Source: Oscillospiraceae bacterium
GTDB lineage: Bacteria > Bacillota > Clostridia > Oscillospirales > Ruminococcaceae
Direction of reading: 5' to 3'
Assembly: GCA_017887325.1 (NCBI GenBank)
Contig: JAGHIE010000005.1
Span: forward strand, 29,076 to 93,075
DNA: 64,000 nucleotides
The position numbers and the translations under genes were made by a program. Of the stretch, positions 40,408-44,531 are shown piece after piece. Numbering within the stretch: the first letter of the stretch is position 1; each line of letters begins with the position of its first letter. The notes beneath the pieces were generated by a model that saw nothing but the letters and a program-made list of their open reading frames with translations, had not been told where the DNA came from and made no database searches.

Positions 40408-41760
40408 ATGGGATTATCAAAAACAAAAGATATGACGGTGGGCTCTCCTATGAAGCTTATTTTAGGATTTGCTGTTCCACTAATGTTTGGTAATATTTTC
40501 CAGCAATTTTATTCTATGGTTGACACTATTATAGTAGGTAGATACCTTGGAAAAGATGCTTTAGCTGGTGTAGGGTCAACAGGAGCTTTGAACTTTTTGA
40601 TATTGGGATTTTGTCTAGGAATTTGCAGTGGTTTTTCTATTCCAATAGCTCAAAGATTTGGTTCTAAAAATATTCCTGAACTTAAAAAATTTGTTGGTAA
40701 TATTATTTGGTTAGCAACAGCATTTGCTGTTGTATTCACTCTGGTGACGGCTTTGTTGTGTAGACAAATGCTAGTTTTAACTAATACACCTGATAATATA
40801 ATCAACTATTCTTATAATTATTTTTTTGTTATATTATGTGGTATTCCTGCTACAATTTTATACAATATTTTATCTGCAATGCTTAGGGCTTTAGGAGATA
40901 GTAAAACTCCCGTTATGTTTTTAGTTATGGCTTCTATCATAAACATAGTGCTTGACATTGTGTTAGTCGTTTATATTCCTTTGGGAGTTGCAGGAGCTGG
41001 TATTGCTACAGTTGTATCTCAAGGAATATCTGGAATTGCTTGTCTTATTTTTATTATGAAAAAATTTCCTATCTTACATATTAGCAAACATGACCTTAAA
41101 CCTAATTTAGGGTATATGATAGAACTTTGTGAGAACGGAGTTCCTATGGGATTACAATATTCTATCACAGCTATTGGTAGTGTAATACTTCAAACTTCTG
41201 TAAATTCTTTAGGTTCTATTGCTGTTGCATCTGTAACTGCAGCAAGTAAGTTATCAATGTTCTTCACTTGTGCATTTGATGCATTAGGTGTTGCAATGTC
41301 AACATATGGTGGCCAAAATGTTGGAGCTAAAAAATATAATCGTTTAACTTCTGGGTTGTATTCTGGTATGATTTTAGGCAGTATTTATTCTATTATAGCC
41401 CTAATAATCATTTTATTCTCAGGTAAAACTTTATTGACACTATTTGTAAGTGCTTCAGAAACACAAATAATCAATGACGCTTATAAATTCTTATTTACCA
41501 ATGTAATCTTCTTTGTATTATTAACTGGTGTAAATGTTATTAGATTATTGATACAAGGAATGGGTTATGGTAAAGTAGCAATCTTCTCAGGAATTTTTGA
41601 AATGATAGCAAGAAGTTTTATAGGATTTTTCATTGTTCCAAGATTTGGATTTTATTCTGCTTGTTACGGAAATCCTTTAGCATGGTTACTAGCTGATCTT
41701 TTCTTAGTACCTGCATTTTTCCTAGTATTAAAACATATAAAAACATGGGGACATCAATAA
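40408..41760 (+). CDS. MATE family efflux transporter
   Basis: GNIFQQFYSMVDTIIVG, GDSKTP, NIVLD, QNVGAK. Confidence 0.93.
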   Translation: MGLSKTKDMTVGSPMKLILGFAVPLMFGNIFQQFYSMVDTIIVGRYLGKDALAGVGSTGALNFLILGFCLGICSGFSIPIAQRFGSKNIPELKKFVGNIIWLATAFAVVFTLVTALLCRQMLVLTNTPDNIINYSYNYFFVILCGIPATILYNILSAMLRALGDSKTPVMFLVMASIINIVLDIVLVVYIPLGVAGAGIATVVSQGISGIACLIFIMKKFPILHISKHDLKPNLGYMIELCENGVPMGLQYSITAIGSVILQTSVNSLGSIAVASVTAASKLSMFFTCAFDALGVAMSTYGGQNVGAKKYNRLTSGLYSGMILGSIYSIIALIIILFSGKTLLTLFVSASETQIINDAYKFLFTNVIFFVLLTGVNVIRLLIQGMGYGKVAIFSGIFEMIARSFIGFFIVPRFGFYSACYGNPLAWLLADLFLVPAFFLVLKHIKTWGHQ

Positions 41761-41792
41761 ATAAAGTAGGTTTTTACCTACTTTATTTTTTT
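41760..41792. terminator. Terminator after MATE, possibly bidirectional
   Basis: AATAAAGTAGG/CCTACTTTATT stem, with a T run on plus and TTTATTTATT on minus. Confidence 0.8.
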
Positions 41793-42274
41793 ATACAATG
41801 AATTAGAGCACATCATACAAATTACCTTAAGTACAATGTGCTCTAATACGCCTCTTCAATATTCAATTTTCATTTGTCCTTTACTATATATTTTTTATTC
41901 ACTCAATCGTTTGCCCTCAAAGTTTACATTCTAACTATCATCACTCATCGTCTATCTTTAATTAATCTGTATAAGTACAGTACCTATGGATAGCACAACT
42001 TATTAACTAACGATATTTATGAATTTAAGAATTCTTGTAACTTATCTATTGACTTTATATGCTGTAAAACGGTTACAACTTTAATATCAACTATTCGTAC
42101 ATTACTCTTCTATTACTAAAAACAAACACTAACTTTTTTACTATACTATAAAGCATGACGTCTACACTTTCCAGATAACTAACTTTCTTTATAAAGTTGA
42201 TATCCAATTACTTACATAAAATCTACTTTATGAAATCTTATATAAGCTGTTGTTAAAATATCATCAATCGAAGC

Positions 42275-43310
42275 CATCTAAAATATGATTTAAATATAAC
42301 TTCTAATATCAAGTAAATTTAATACAATCTTTATCTTCTTGCTACTTTATGAGCCGAACGATAGTTTTTTCTTGTCTAATCCTCTTTATGAGATTAAAAA
42401 CAAATTATTGTAAAACTCTCTTTATGAAGTTTGATACAATACATTATAATAAATCACTTACCCAGAACAATTAAGAAGTTCCAACAGATTTTTCTTTATA
42501 AAAATCTATCTGTAAAAATTCTTCTTTATAAGAATTCTCACTTTTCTCAATTCCCATTCGATAAAGAACTTATATCTAACAATTTAACCATTCTACTTTA
42601 TTAGACTAATTAATTCAATATCTGTGACTTAAATTTACTACACTTTAAACAACACATTAGTAAAAATTTCTATAACTACTGTTTTTACTCTAATATTAGT
42701 AATAATGTAAAAATATTTTCTAAATTACTAAACATGATTGGACTTACAATCTATATAACTATAAATACGCCATCTAAAACTTTACTTGAGATACTGTAAA
42801 AATATACCTAATTAAAGTCATCTAAAATATGATCCAAGTACATCTCATATATCAAGCGAATTTACTACAATCTTTATCTTCTTGCTACTTTATGAGCTGA
42901 ACGATAGTTTTTTCTTGTCTAATCCTCTTTATGAGATTAAAAACAAATTATTGCAAAACTCTCTTTATGAAGTTTAATACAATACATTATAATAAATCAC
43001 TTACTCGAGATAATTTAAGAACATTCAACAAATCCTTCTTTATAAGTCTTTATTGGTAAAAATCTTTCTTTATAAAGAAATTTACTTTTCTTAAAAACTA
43101 CTGATATTGAAATATATATGGCATTTTAATCATTTTACTTTATTAAAACAATTAATTCGATATTCGTAACTTAAACCAACTATACTTAATACCATTTTGA
43201 ATCTCTCATTCACTTTTTATATCTCACAATAGGTACTTTATGACCAAATTGTTGTATCTGTTTTATGGACTTACAATTTATGAAATATAAAACTGCCATA
43301 CGCTAAATCT
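42275..43310. repeat. Two-copy tandem duplication, period 543-544 bp
   Basis: Core 42323-42461 vs 42866-43004 is 139 bp with 3 mismatches; flanks are more diverged but alignable (CATCTAAAATATGAT at 42275/42819; TGGACTTACAAT near both right ends). Confidence 0.95.
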
Positions 43311-43763
43311 TCTGGTGGACTCACTCCCCACAGATTACTCTTTAATCCTTCTTAGTACATTTACTGTCATTTTCATCACAACCTAATTTATATATGATAG
43401 TTGTTTGAAAAATTTCTAAGTTTTAGTACATCGGTATCTCCCTCTTTACGATTAAAGTTATGTTTAATTTTAACTTAACTATCTCATTGGACTAACCTCT
43501 TTACTATATTTTCTATACCATGTCCTTATTAATAGTATTTGATAGATTCTATATAAAAGGTTTAATAACCTAACAACTGATTATATTTTAACAATAGTTA
43601 AAGTAAATATAATGTACTTATTCCAATGTCTATCAAACTTAAATAACTAGAACAATCGCCTCACCGATTACATCTTTAATTCCTCCTAAACTATATTCCC
43701 AAATCCATTAAATAAAATTTGTTTATTTACTTTAACTTTATTGAGAACTTTTATCTTGTCTAT

Positions 43764-43792
43764 ATAATAACACCCAAATTATATTTTGTCAA
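43764..43792 (-). promoter_or_regulatory. Strong extended sigma-A promoter facing into the ORF-free region
   Basis: TTGACA (43787-43792), 17 nt spacer ending TGT, TATTAT (43764-43769), long A-tract upstream. Confidence 0.8.
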
Positions 43793-43851
43793 TAGTTTTT
43801 TTCAACTTTTTTTATTTTTTTTATTTATTTTTTATAAAGAATTAAATTCAA

Positions 43852-43880
43852 TTGACATATCTATAAAAAAACATTAAAAT
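43852..43880 (+). promoter_or_regulatory. Sigma-A promoter of the DUF1292 gene
   Basis: TTGACA-17 nt-TAAAAT, back-to-back with the leftward promoter. Confidence 0.75.
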
Positions 43881-43915
43881 CATATTGTAAATTATTGTAT
43901 AGGAGGATTACTAAT

Positions 43916-44248
43916 ATGAGTGAAAATCAAGAAAACTTAGAATATACACCTGATATCTACACATTAGTAGATGAAGAAGGAAACGAACAAGCTTTTGAAT
44001 TATTAGATGTAATGGAATTAGATGATAACACATACTTTGCTTTAATTCCTTATTTTGAAAATCCAGAAGATGCATTGAACTCAGATGCTGACTTAGTAGT
44101 ATTAAAATCTGAAATGGTTGACGGCGAAGAAATGATGGCTACAATCAATGATGATGAAGAATATGATAGAGTTGGAAATATATTCTTAGAAAAATTAGCT
44201 AATATGTATGAAGATGAAATGGAAGAACTTGGATTAGAAGTTGAATAA
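43916..44248 (+). CDS. DUF1292-like acidic protein
   Basis: IYTLVDEEGNEQAFELLD...YFAL; start at ATG 43916 behind AGGAGG. Confidence 0.85.
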   Translation: MSENQENLEYTPDIYTLVDEEGNEQAFELLDVMELDDNTYFALIPYFENPEDALNSDADLVVLKSEMVDGEEMMATINDDEEYDRVGNIFLEKLANMYEDEMEELGLEVE

Positions 44249-44310: not shown

Positions 44311-44516
44311 AATAGTTACTGCCTTGTTATAAGTCTTTGACTTTAGTTAGTACAGATTATAATAATCCAACACTTATTTAATTGGGAACCTATCTCTAAT
44401 TGTATAATTGCAGACCTCCCACTTTTGTGGACGAAGGGAGCATGTCGACAATAGGCGGTTACCCACCCTGCTATAAAGCGGGTTTTTCTTAACTGTACGA
44501 CTGCAAGGCGGTTATT
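44311..44516 (+). ncRNA. ssrS: 6S RNA
   Basis: Closing stem ACTGCCTTG/CAAGGCGGT, GTC..TTTGAC/ACGAC arm, GGGAGCATGTCGA and ACCCACC..GCGGGTT motifs as in Firmicute 6S. Own promoter TTGTAT-16-TATAAT with TG (44268-44295); about 200 nt. Ends approximate. Confidence 0.82.
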
Positions 44517-44531
44517 TTTATTTAAAAAATT

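What the first reader, a model, noticed from the sequence alone, without database searches (positions are those of the whole stretch)
41760..43792. Candidate new long non-coding RNA: about 2 kb, own strong promoter, array of AUAAAG-loop hairpins
Seen in sequence: no ORF of about 60 aa or more in any frame over 2.1 kb. A TTGACA-17-TGnTATTAT promoter with an upstream A-tract points into the region, and the next gene (MATE) is convergent, so there is no cis target. I count 18 co-oriented CTTTAT cores between 42187 and 43236, about a dozen in hairpins. Most read on the minus strand as stem-(C/U)AUAAAG-(A/U bulge)-stem: AACUU/AAGUU (42187), AGAUUU/AGAUUU (42226), GCU/AGC (42345, 42888), AAUCU/GGAUU (42384, 42927), AAACUU/GAGUUU (42420, 42963), GAUUUU/AAAAUC (42494), AAUUCU/AGAAUU (42524), GGU/ACC (43236). 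Stem sequences differ while the loop is fixed. Several stems need G-U pairs that would be A-C mismatches on the plus strand, which agrees with the promoter direction. Inference: the design parallels CsrB/RsmZ-type RNAs, where many identical loops titrate an RNA-binding protein, but the motif is not GGA and the size is much larger. I do not recognise it as OLE, ROOL, GOLLD or a type III antitoxin, so both the RNA and its partner may be undescribed.
Basis: partly seen in the sequence, partly recalled or inferred. Interest (0 to 1): 0.92.

Follow-up and report, generated by a model that had tools for sequence, protein, structure and literature searches.

The report
Abundant modular non-coding RNA, undescribed family
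The 2-kb gene-free stretch encodes a real, highly expressed, structured non-coding RNA that belongs to a widespread, apparently undescribed RNA family of gut and rumen Clostridia built from repeated ribosome-binding-site look-alikes, which makes it a strong candidate for a new kind of bacterial regulatory RNA.

Summary
Window 41761-43855 is the only long ORF-free gap. AUAAAG occurs 20 times on the minus strand (3.2 expected), 11 times in hairpin loops. RNA-run contigs from several studies cover about 41852-43693 and not the flanking genes. The strand is minus, shown by a conserved promoter, a covarying terminator and many G-U pairs.

The RNA belongs to a family found next to the DUF1292 (yrzB) gene and 6S RNA in many Oscillospiraceae-like genomes and gut or rumen metagenomes (0.3-2 kb). 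It has no Rfam match and I found no paper describing it.

The family hallmark is not AUAAAG. It is an array of very strong Shine-Dalgarno-like modules (GAAAGGAGUGAGUCC), mostly followed by AUG, one codon and a stop. The window keeps about five modules in its first 450 nt. After them come two copies of a 390-nt domain, each with a 28-bp closing helix and six AUAAAG-loop hairpins. This domain occurs only in the window species and one sister species.

Best reading, inferred: a multivalent decoy. The core engages ribosomes and the AUAAAG loops bind an unknown partner. The function is untested.

The parts
43764..43812 (-). Promoter of the RNA. Upstream A-tract 43796-43802, -35 TTGACA 43792-43787, TG 43772-43771, -10 TATTAT 43769-43764. 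Predicted start about 43757 (+/-3).
   Evidence: Consensus scan. The hexamers and A-tract are conserved while the spacer varies in 10 relatives. The same consensus is a generic strong promoter in related phage contigs.
41800..43757 (-). The transcript, about 1.95 kb, non-coding. The 5' and 3' ends are predicted, not mapped.
   Evidence: Contigs from RNA runs X1, X4, X9, X11, X5 and X2 cover about 41852-43693, with zero depth on the MATE and DUF1292 genes. All three stop codons occur in all frames. No ORF of 60 aa or more.
43668..43687 (-). Module 1: AGGAGG-N7-AUG-UAA (start-stop). It sits where relatives have a ~21-codon small ORF.
   Evidence: Sequence. SD:anti-SD duplex -10.2 kcal/mol. Conserved in L192. 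Relatives' ORFs.
43647..43665 (-). Module 2: SD-like GGUGAGG, followed by UUG UUC UAG.
   Evidence: Duplex -10.8 kcal/mol. Coordinates.
43479..43504 (-). Module 3: GUAAAGAGGUUAGUCCAAUG-AGA-UAG (canonical family module, two-codon ORF).
   Evidence: Module HMM hit. Aligned with 145 family modules.
43423..43449 (-). Module 4: GUAAAGAGGGAGAUACCGAUG-UAC-UAA (two-codon ORF).
   Evidence: Module HMM hit. Duplex -9.4 kcal/mol.
43302..43329 (-). Module 5 ('block c'): GGGGAGUGAGUCCACCAGAAGAUUUAGC. An AUG-less module and the most widely conserved block of the family.
   Evidence: BLAST block in relatives. Context in 8 relatives. Used as the pattern that retrieved metagenome relatives.
42800..43187 (-). 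Structured domain, copy A. A ~28-bp closing helix (43187-43157 with 42832-42800) encloses six hairpins with (C/U/A)AUAAAG(A/U) loops.
   Evidence: RNAalifold and pair counts on alignment A1. The single-sequence MFE gives the same architecture, z = -4.29. Coordinates.
42256..42645 (-). Structured domain, copy B. A paralogue of copy A produced by the ~543-nt duplication.
   Evidence: Direct repeats D1-D3. Alignment A1. The sister species L192 has only one copy.
42176..42255 (-). Two further AUAAAG-loop hairpins downstream of copy B: a 15-bp stem at 42255-42205, and AACUUU-AUAAAG-AAAGUU around 42192.
   Evidence: Stem search. Helices 12-14 of A1. Retained in L192 with G-U/A-U changes.
41852..41885 (-). 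Conserved 3' block AGUAAAGGAcAAAUGAAAAUUGAAUAUUGAAGAG.
   Evidence: AAUUGAAUA..GAA is invariant in 8-9 relatives. RNA contigs of X1 and X4 end at 41852.
41803..41846 (-). Terminator-type hairpin UUAGAGCACAU...AUGUGCUCUAA. Its U-tract is weak here. The bidirectional MATE terminator at 41759-41788 follows.
   Evidence: Across 8 relatives 96 of 96 cells are paired, 5 pairs change on both sides and 7 cells are G-U. Relatives have a U-run after it.

Best explanation
SHOWN
- The region encodes a discrete, abundant, minus-strand non-coding RNA of about 1.95 kb. It runs from a consensus sigma-A-type promoter (start near 43757) to a conserved terminator hairpin (41846-41803).
- It belongs to a widespread RNA family (0.3-2 kb) of low-GC Clostridia (Oscillospiraceae/Ruminococcaceae-like genomes; gut, rumen and wastewater samples). 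In most members found, the gene is divergent from the DUF1292/yrzB gene, which is followed by 6S RNA.
- No Rfam family matches it.
- Family RNAs are purine-rich and built from up to 13 co-oriented modules, (U)GAAAGGAGUGAGUCC. These are predicted to pair with the 16S 3' tail more strongly than real ribosome-binding sites do.
- Most modules are followed by (A/G)AUG, one sense codon and a stop. Others lack the AUG. The first module usually opens a ~21-codon ORF.
- The window RNA has about five modules in its first 450 nt. It then has two tandem copies of a 390-nt domain, each with a long closing helix and six hairpins with invariant AUAAAG loops. More such hairpins, the family 3' block and the terminator follow.

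INFERRED (mechanism)
- The RNA works as a multivalent decoy or scaffold rather than as a message.
- The family core mimics translation-initiation regions. It repeatedly captures 30S/70S ribosomes, which initiate and terminate at once. This would buffer or sequester initiation capacity, and could also protect the RNA from decay.
- In this lineage, the added AUAAAG-loop hairpin array presents about 15-20 identical loops to a second, unidentified partner (a protein, or an RNA carrying CUUUAU).
For: Transcript
- RNA-run contigs from four or more studies cover 41852-43693 at word depth 10-47 (378 in X5), with zero depth on neighbouring genes. A DNA-like run (X19) is flat across the same genes.
- A relative, L131, assembles in rumen metatranscriptomes as 1338-1339-nt contigs that match the predicted start and terminator. 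Its depth is 3-12 times that of the adjacent 6S RNA contig.

Strand and ends
- The promoter is conserved in 10 relatives while the spacer varies.
- Terminator hairpin: 96 of 96 cells paired, 5 compensatory pairs.
- 18% of structure cells are G-U.
- Fold z-score -4.29 on minus, -0.33 on plus.

Non-coding
- The gap is ORF-free in relatives from 24% to 56% GC.
- All three stop codons occur in all frames.

Family and modules
- 145 HMM hits in 30 RNAs, up to 13 per RNA.
- In the window the hits are confined to this region.
- 39 of 72 SD-CCNAUG modules have exactly two codons. Another 4 are AUG-stop and 4 have three codons. In the control frames 3-6% have two codons. The two-codon modules use 22 different codon/stop combinations.
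- Predicted module:anti-SD duplex energy has a median of -12.6 kcal/mol. Real window RBSs give -9.6 and random 20-mers -3.9. The consensus module gives -18.8.

AUAAAG domain
- 95.3% of cells paired. 19 pairs change on both sides, against 7.7 +/- 2.2 in shuffles (0 of 500 reach 19) and at most 5 in slid controls.
- Loop columns are 83% invariant, stems 66%, linkers 51%.
- Motif enrichment is shown.

Not described
- Rfam 15: no hit at gathering or E-value thresholds, in the window and in 24 relatives.
- Seven literature searches found nothing.
Against: - No direct evidence of ribosome or protein binding. The mechanism is inferred from sequence design alone.
- The run data are unstranded contigs, and contig depth is only a rough proxy for expression.
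- Predicted accessibility of modules in full-length folds is about average.
- In the window, strong SD sites are limited to the first 450 nt. The AUAAAG hairpins pair only weakly with a generic anti-SD (-6.1 kcal/mol). So the ribosome-decoy idea does not explain three quarters of this particular RNA.
- The anti-SD sequence used was generic. This organism's 16S tail is unknown.
- The domain covariation rests on three sequences, two of them paralogous copies, and the structure was derived from the same alignment.
- The first ORF shows some amino-acid-level conservation in most relatives, so a coding role cannot be excluded for the family. That ORF is lost here.
- The module HMM was seeded by eye.
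Confidence: 0.45

Rival explanations
1. Protein sponge in the CsrB/RsmZ manner. The many identical AUAAAG loops, and in other lineages the GGAGUGAGUCC modules, titrate a dedicated RNA-binding protein. Ribosomes are irrelevant. One candidate by analogy is Hfq, whose distal face in Gram-positives binds (A-N)n repeats; AUAAAG reads A-U, A-A, A-G.
For: - Loops are the best-conserved columns while stems covary.
- 20 copies against 3.2 expected.
- High abundance.
- Modular expansion by duplication is typical of sponge RNAs.
- The Hfq fit comes from my own knowledge of published Hfq-RNA structures. It was not tested here.
Against: - No partner was identified.
- The AUAAAG array is confined to two species, whereas the RNA is far more widespread.
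- A protein site does not explain why AUG plus an in-frame stop two codons later is kept with varying codons.
- About half of the modules lack GGA, so CsrA itself is unlikely.
- This rival partly overlaps with the best explanation, which already assigns the loops to an unknown partner.
Confidence: 0.25
2. A translated RNA. It would be either a dual-function RNA whose product is the ~21-residue peptide of the first module, or a multi-minigene message whose fMet-X products or peptidyl-tRNA turnover are the point.
For: - Modules have proper RBS geometry and strength.
- ORF lengths are bimodal, at 2 codons or 16-25 codons.
- First-ORF peptides share M-x-x-x-[DE]-[EQ]-[QP]-[FY], with conservative and synonymous-type changes.
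- A two-codon minigene is a known regulatory element in axe-txe (PMC8708949, found).
Against: - In the window and its sister species the first ORF is reduced to AUG-UAA, yet the RNA is retained and abundant.
- Peptide sequences diverge strongly between subgroups.
- Many modules have no AUG at all.
- The 1.5 kb of structured hairpin domains here has no coding reading.
Confidence: 0.15
3. Base-pairing sponge or regulator. The G-rich SD-like modules would soak up C/U-rich small RNAs, as RosA does for RoxS in Bacillus. Alternatively the AUAAAG loops would kiss CUUUAU sequences in target RNAs.
For: - G is far more frequent than C, and the composition is purine-rich.
- The repeated motifs are exposed in loops.
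- There is a precedent for an SD-like sponge RNA in Firmicutes (PMC8216469, listed).
Against: - No candidate partner RNA was found. Only 64 kb of the genome was available.
- It does not explain the conserved AUG-codon-stop.
- Six-nt A/U-rich loop pairing would be weak.
Confidence: 0.1
4. Not an RNA gene: a decayed protein gene, a long UTR of a neighbouring gene, or a DNA-level element (iterons or an origin).
For: The GC skew resembles that of minus-strand genes. CTTTAT repeats could in principle be DNA-binding sites.
Against: - The gap is ORF-free in relatives spanning 24-56% GC.
- It has its own promoter and terminator.
- Downstream genes differ between relatives: MATE, ABC transporter, beta-lactamase-like, coaX-like, tRNA-Ala.
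- There are discrete RNA contigs with silent flanks.
- Covariation includes G-U pairs that are meaningless in duplex DNA.
- Stop codons of all three types occur in all frames.
Confidence: 0.02

Closest known systems
CsrB/RsmY/RsmZ-type protein-sponge RNAs
   Same: Abundant non-coding RNA with many copies of one short motif displayed in hairpin loops. Copy number varies by modular duplication. The motifs resemble ribosome-binding sites.
   Different: No sequence or covariance-model match. The loop motif is AUAAAG or GGAGUGAGUCC, not a GGA loop. It is 3-6 times longer. Modules carry AUG plus an immediate stop. The host is Clostridia, where no CsrB-type RNA is known (own knowledge). The partner is unknown.
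6S RNA (SsrS)
   Same: An abundant, stable RNA that acts by mimicking a substrate of a core machine; 6S mimics open promoter DNA for RNA polymerase. Here the design mimics translation-initiation regions. The two genes are neighbours in many genomes.
   Different: Unrelated sequence and structure. Ribosome mimicry is only inferred. The RNA is much longer and repetitive.
Two-codon minigenes (phage lambda bar; the axe-txe minigene, PMC8708949) and 'start-stop' sites seen by retapamulin ribosome profiling (bioRxiv 10.1101/520783)
   Same: A Shine-Dalgarno sequence, AUG, zero or one sense codon, then a stop.
   Different: The known cases are single elements inside an mRNA or phage region. Here up to about ten per RNA are arrayed on a dedicated, highly expressed transcript and conserved across a family. 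The lambda bar comparison is from my own knowledge.
STAB-SD and ribosome-mediated 5' stabilisers of Bacillus mRNAs (cryIIIA, aprE, ermC leaders; own knowledge)
   Same: Strong SD-like sequences that bind ribosomes without productive translation and protect the RNA.
   Different: Those are single 5' elements serving a downstream coding region. Here no coding region follows, and in short family members the modules make up most of the RNA.
Large ornate bacterial ncRNAs (OLE, ROOL, GOLLD)
   Same: Long non-coding RNA in Firmicutes from gut or rumen, with its own promoter, unknown biochemical function and a tRNA gene nearby in relatives.
   Different: No Rfam match to any of them. Not found in phage contigs. 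The composition is purine-rich and repetitive, with a variable module number, rather than one fixed ornate fold.
RosA-type sRNA sponge of Bacillus subtilis (PMC8216469)
   Same: A Firmicute non-coding RNA whose G-rich, SD-like stretches act as a decoy.
   Different: RosA is about 225 nt with a few sites and a known partner (RoxS/FsrA). No partner RNA is known here, and the size, copy number and AUG-stop feature all differ.

Membership tests
CsrB/RsmZ family (CsrA-titrating RNAs) | Match to the Rfam CsrB/CsrC/RsmX/Y/Z covariance models | tested here: not met
   No gathering-level hit in the window. In E-value mode on 41600-44000 there were only four chance-level hits, none of this clan.
CsrB/RsmZ family (CsrA-titrating RNAs) | Multiple GGA motifs in hairpin loops | tested here: not met
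   The loops read (C/U/A)AUAAAG(A/U). Family modules have GGA in only about half of cases.
CsrB/RsmZ family (CsrA-titrating RNAs) | A CsrA partner encoded in the genome and bound by the RNA | not testable with these tools
   Only 64 kb of the genome is available, and there is no binding assay.
OLE / ROOL / GOLLD / other curated large ncRNAs | Match to the family covariance model | tested here: not met
   Rfam 15, 4227 models: zero hits in the window. Nothing covers the RNA in 24 related loci.
Type III toxin-antitoxin antitoxin RNA (ToxI-like) | Tandem near-identical ~36-nt repeats directly upstream of a toxin ORF on the same strand | tested here: not met
   The repeat search finds one ~543-nt two-copy duplication and no short tandem array. 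No ORF of 60 aa or more follows on the minus strand.
Protein-coding gene or pseudogene (including recoded genes) | An open frame, or a frame interrupted by only one type of stop codon | tested here: not met
   34-41 TAA, 13-22 TAG and 9-13 TGA in each minus-strand frame. The gap is ORF-free in relatives of 24-56% GC.
The new family proposed here (RBS-module array RNA next to DUF1292) | Consensus promoter divergent from the DUF1292/yrzB gene, with 6S RNA downstream of that gene | tested here: met
   Window promoter 43792-43764 and DUF1292 at 43916-44248. A sub-threshold full-length 6S match at 44335-44518. The same layout is seen in L003, L011, L012, L131, L081 and L088.
The new family proposed here (RBS-module array RNA next to DUF1292) | Several co-oriented (A)AAGGAG/AGAGGU-N-(U/A)CC modules, most followed by AUG, 0-2 codons and a stop | tested here: met
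   Window modules at 43687-43302 include AUG-UAA, AUG-AGA-UAG and AUG-UAC-UAA. There are fewer of them than in most relatives (4 HMM hits against up to 13).
The new family proposed here (RBS-module array RNA next to DUF1292) | Block c (GGAGUGAGWCCRCC...UUAG), the 3' block AAAAUUGAAUAnnGAA, and the covarying terminator hairpin | tested here: met
   Window 43329-43302, 41885-41852 and 41846-41803.
The new family proposed here (RBS-module array RNA next to DUF1292) | Discrete abundant transcript spanning promoter to terminator | tested here: met
   Window: (contigs reach within about 65 nt of the predicted start and to the base of the terminator). L131: (1338-nt contigs).

The most novel reading that the evidence does not exclude
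This would be a translation-side counterpart of 6S RNA: an abundant RNA class that mimics translation-initiation regions. Arrays of super-strong Shine-Dalgarno/AUG/stop modules would hold or cycle a sizeable share of the cell's ribosomes, or initiator tRNA and release/recycling factors. That would set global translation capacity in gut and rumen Clostridia. Lineage-specific add-on domains, such as the AUAAAG-loop array here, would recruit further undescribed partners.
Probability: 0.3. Interest if true: 0.95.

Novelty: categorically new. Interest (0 to 1): 0.86.

Why it matters
If confirmed, this adds a new class of large bacterial non-coding RNA. It is widespread in Oscillospiraceae-type Clostridia of human, bird and ruminant guts. 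By assembly depth it is more abundant than 6S RNA in rumen metatranscriptomes.

Its design, arrays of near-perfect ribosome-binding sites followed by immediately terminated reading frames, has no described counterpart. It points to direct RNA-level control of the ribosome pool, and that can be tested.

At least one carrier is an isolate genome (GCA_900095865.1, locus L204). I did not confirm that the strain is available.

The AUAAAG-loop domain shows how such RNAs gain new multivalent modules by duplication, and it offers a defined bait for finding an unknown partner.

Practically, the family can dominate non-rRNA reads in gut metatranscriptomes and is currently unannotated.

Tried and rejected
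- Rfam at gathering and E-value thresholds on the window and 24 related loci: nothing relevant.
- Stop-codon reassignment as the reason for the ORF-free gap: rejected, because all three stops occur in all frames.
- The promoter plus start sequence as a family marker: rejected. The same pattern occurs in 58 phage contigs in front of ordinary short leaders and ORFs, so it is a generic strong promoter.
- Phage association: the three viral hits to block c lie in coding sequence and are chance.
- BLAST of the window RNA against the 119 metagenome loci: no close relative. Close relatives came instead from exact-protein look-ups of DUF1292.
- Predicted accessibility of modules in full-length partition-function folds: no clear signal.
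- Consensus folding of five group-B relatives: variable linker hairpins covary, but no clear common presentation of the modules emerged.
- AUAAAG loops as anti-SD binders: weak at -6.1 kcal/mol, so not supported.
- AUAAAG as a family-wide motif: rejected.
- tRNA co-transcription: the tRNA-Ala(GGC) downstream in five relatives has its own promoter and is absent here.
- One read-laying run failed on a sequence filter.
- No raw-read, stranded run was available, so strand rests on promoter, terminator and G-U evidence.
- Seven literature searches found no description. The library holds open-access papers only.


Full report
**Observation**

Window 41761-43855 is the only stretch over 600 nt in the 64-kb window without an 80-aa stop-to-stop frame. 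The longest ORF inside is 57 aa.

CTTTAT occurs 21 times in 41761-43792, against 1.39/kb window-wide. On the minus-strand transcript AUAAAG occurs 20 times, against 3.19 +/- 1.75 in 2000 dinucleotide-preserving shuffles (maximum 11). Eleven copies sit between stems of at least 4 bp, against 0.69 +/- 0.82.

About six copies are there because a ~543-nt segment is duplicated (42306-42650 matches 42849-43192, 72-93% identity). The promoter TTGACA-17-TGtTATTAT is at 43792-43764 on the minus strand. Rfam 15 has no match at either threshold.

**It is transcribed, as a discrete and abundant RNA**

Contigs from RNA runs of several independent studies (metatranscriptomes from birds, wastewater and an unnamed host organism) cover about 41852-43693. 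Word depths are 10-47, and 378 in X5. The MATE, DUF1292 and other neighbouring genes have depth 0. A DNA-like run covers DUF1292 and its surroundings evenly.

A depth spike at 43807-43838 is a low-complexity T-run artefact.

These are unstranded assemblies, so they show presence and extent, not direction.

**Strand and ends**

Ten related loci share the motif AAAAAAACTATTGACA-N17-TAT(T/A)(A/T)T-ATAGACAAG. The spacer varies freely, which is the signature of a functional promoter firing leftwards. The same consensus is a generic strong promoter in related phage contigs. It therefore indicates strength, not family identity.

At the other end there is a conserved block, AGUAAAGGA..AAAAUUGAAUAnnGAAGAG. 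It is followed by a hairpin UAGAGCACAU...AUGUGCUCUA. In eight relatives all 96 pair cells are standard pairs, five pairs change on both sides, and seven cells are G-U.

In the internal domain 80 of 446 pair cells are G-U, so only 77% would pair on the plus strand. The minus strand folds far better than its shuffles (z = -4.29); the plus strand does not (z = -0.33). GC skew is strongly G-rich on the minus strand.

The RNA therefore runs from about 43757 to about 41800 on the minus strand, roughly 1.95 kb. The ends are predicted, not mapped.

**It is not a gene remnant or a leader**

All three stop codons are frequent in every frame. The equivalent gap is ORF-free in relatives from 24% to 56% GC. 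The gene beyond the terminator differs between relatives:
- MATE in the window.
- An ABC transporter directly in the sister species L192.
- A beta-lactamase-like gene, a coaX-like gene, or a tRNA-Ala(GGC) with its own promoter elsewhere.

**A family**

A scan with the neighbouring DUF1292 protein returned 14 loci from species-representative genomes, mostly Oscillospiraceae/Ruminococcaceae MAGs. Most have a 0.8-1.4-kb ORF-free gap in the same place. Three sequence blocks are shared with the window.

The most conserved block was used as a pattern and recovered 119 metagenome stretches. Those below 54% GC fall into several groups of true relatives from human gut, rumen and other sources. High-GC hits and one rRNA contig are chance.

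Exact-protein look-ups added the following:
- Other samples of the window species, 99.6-100% identical.
- A sister species, L192: 78% nucleotide identity, a single copy of the duplicated unit, no MATE gene.
- L200.
- An isolate genome, L204 (GCA_900095865.1).

Family RNAs range from about 300 nt to about 2 kb and are purine-rich with G far exceeding C. 6S RNA lies just beyond DUF1292 in six relatives. The window has a full-length but sub-threshold 6S match at the same place (44335-44518, 24.2 bits, E = 0.005).

One relative, L131, assembles in rumen metatranscriptomes as 1338-1339-nt contigs that match the predicted start and terminator. Its depth is 3-12 times that of the adjacent 6S contig, and the flanks are silent.

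**What the family conserves**

The conserved element is not AUAAAG. It is a module, (U)GAAAGGAGUGAGU-CC. A profile seeded from twelve examples finds 145 instances in 30 RNAs, up to 13 per RNA, all co-oriented. In the window the hits are confined to this region.

After CC comes one of three continuations:
- (A/G)AUG.
- (A/G)CC(A/G)(A/G)A...UUAG.
- AAAGUACUA.

Among 72 AUG-type modules (near-duplicate RNAs removed):
- 39 have exactly AUG, one sense codon and a stop.
- 4 are AUG-stop and 4 have three codons.
- In the two control frames only 3-6% have length two.
- The two-codon modules use 22 different codon/stop combinations.

That pattern indicates selection on immediate termination in the AUG frame rather than on a fixed sequence.

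The remaining class is the first module of each RNA. It opens a 16-25-codon ORF (mode 21) with a loosely conserved acidic start, M-x-x-x-[DE]-[EQ]-[QP]-[FY].

Predicted pairing of modules with a generic Firmicute 16S 3' tail is stronger than for the window's own gene RBSs: median -12.6 against -9.6 kcal/mol, with random 20-mers at -3.9. The consensus module pairs with almost the whole 16-nt tail at -18.8 kcal/mol.

**The window RNA in detail**

The first ~450 nt hold these elements:

| Element | Sequence | Window coordinates |
|---|---|---|
| Module 1 | AGGAGG-N7-AUG-UAA | 43687-43668 |
| Module 2 | SD-like GGUGAGG | 43665-43647 |
| Module 3 | GUAAAGAGGUUAGUCCAAUG-AGA-UAG | 43504-43479 |
| Module 4 | GUAAAGAGGGAGAUACCGAUG-UAC-UAA | 43449-43423 |
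| Possible 11-codon ORF | | 43384-43335 |
| Module 5 (block c, AUG-less) | | 43329-43302 |

The ~21-codon ORF of relatives is reduced to AUG-UAA both here and in L192.

Two copies of a 390-nt domain follow, at 43187-42800 and 42645-42256. The two copies were aligned with the single L192 copy. The consensus structure has a ~28-bp closing helix, two further long helices and six hairpins with (C/U/A)AUAAAG(A/U) loops.
- 95.3% of cells pair.
- 19 pairs change on both sides, against 7.7 +/- 2.2 in shuffles (0 of 500) and at most 5 in slid controls.
- The single-sequence MFE fold reproduces this architecture.
- Loop columns are 83% invariant, stems 66% and linkers 51%.

Caveat: there are only three sequences, two of them paralogues, and the structure came from the same alignment.

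More AUAAAG hairpins follow (42255-42176), then the family 3' block and terminator.

AUAAAG density is 10.1/kb here and 5.4/kb in L192. It is 0-3.3/kb in the 31 other family RNAs, including ones of equal AT content. The hairpin array is therefore a lineage-specific addition.

In this lineage the canonical modules begin (A/G)UAAAGAGG, and one hairpin reads CAUAAAGAGGAUUAGAC. The loop motif may therefore derive from the 5' part of the module. That is an inference. Its predicted anti-SD pairing is weak (-6.1 kcal/mol).

**Mechanism (inferred)**

The design is a strong promoter, high abundance, no message, and many near-perfect ribosome-binding sites that start and at once stop translation. It fits a multivalent decoy for the translation-initiation machinery, by analogy with 6S RNA for RNA polymerase and CsrB for CsrA. 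Ribosome loading would also stabilise the RNA, as STAB-SD elements do in Bacillus (own knowledge).

The AUAAAG loop array is best read as a second multivalent platform for an unknown partner. Hfq-type (A-N)n recognition or loop-loop pairing are possibilities that I could not test.

Rivals:
- A pure protein sponge.
- A dual-function or minigene message.
- An sRNA sponge.

A pseudogene or DNA element is effectively excluded.

**Novelty**

No Rfam family matches the RNA. Seven full-text searches found no description. These included the module sequences themselves, DUF1292/YrzB, minigenes, start-stops, SD sponges and large ncRNA classes.

The library is open-access only, so an earlier description cannot be ruled out.

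Noticed in passing
window 44335-44518 (+): A full-length but sub-threshold match to 6S RNA (24.2 bits against a gathering score of 46.4, E = 0.005). It lies just downstream of DUF1292, where relatives have gathering-level 6S genes, so it is probably this AT-rich organism's 6S RNA. None of the four RNA runs laid across it has a contig there.
   Followed up: partly
window 42306-42650 and 42849-43192: The ~543-nt direct duplication (72-93% identity across its three segments) doubles the structured domain. The sister species L192 has a single copy, so the duplication is probably recent.
   Followed up: yes
window 40408-41760 (+), compared with L192 609-2333: The MATE efflux gene between the ABC transporter and the RNA's 3' end is absent in the sister species L192. 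There the RNA terminator faces the ABC transporter gene directly. This is a gene gain or loss at the RNA's 3' flank.
   Followed up: partly
window 41759-41788: A 13-bp hairpin serves as the MATE terminator on the plus strand. It is also transcribed-strand compatible on the minus strand, just after the RNA's own weak-U terminator, so it may act as a bidirectional back-up terminator.
   Followed up: no
L015-L072 (viral contigs): The motif AAAAACTATTGACA-N17-TATWWT-WTARWCA occurs in 58 phage contigs, up to four times in one. Each copy sits in front of a short leader and a small ORF. It is an unusually extended shared promoter consensus (UP element through the +1 region) for these Clostridia and their phages.
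   Followed up: partly
L001, L002, L005, L007, L009, L200 (downstream of the RNA terminator): A tRNA-Ala(GGC) gene with its own TTGACA-N17-TGAGAAAAT promoter follows the RNA on the same strand in six relatives. It is absent from the whole 64-kb window.
   Followed up: partly
L092 and about 50 similar human-gut contigs (group A): A short (~300 nt) version of the family: a promoter, 3-4 modules (AAAGGAGUGAGACCACCGAAAAC and AGAGAGGUAC..CCACCA types) and a terminator. It lies next to an unidentified minus-strand gene rather than DUF1292 and is very common in human gut assemblies.
   Followed up: partly
window 43335-43384 (-), compared with L192: A possible 11-codon ORF (MTVNVLRRIKE) behind an SD-like AGGUUGUGAU. 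The sister species has a 10-codon ORF (MYRDIKRMKE) at the same place. The conservation is weak, and whether it is coding is unclear.
   Followed up: no
window 43916-44248 (+): The DUF1292/YrzB protein beside the RNA is extremely acidic (long D/E runs). Its constant pairing with this RNA gene and 6S RNA across many genomes is unexplained.
   Followed up: no
L074 positions ~1057-1754 of the RNA gap: In this relative the 3' half is a tandem array of seven ~117-nt units. Each unit has one GGAGUGAGUCC module, a GGCGGC...GCCG hairpin and a second AGGUGUGAUC-N-AUG site. It shows a different route of modular expansion.
   Followed up: partly
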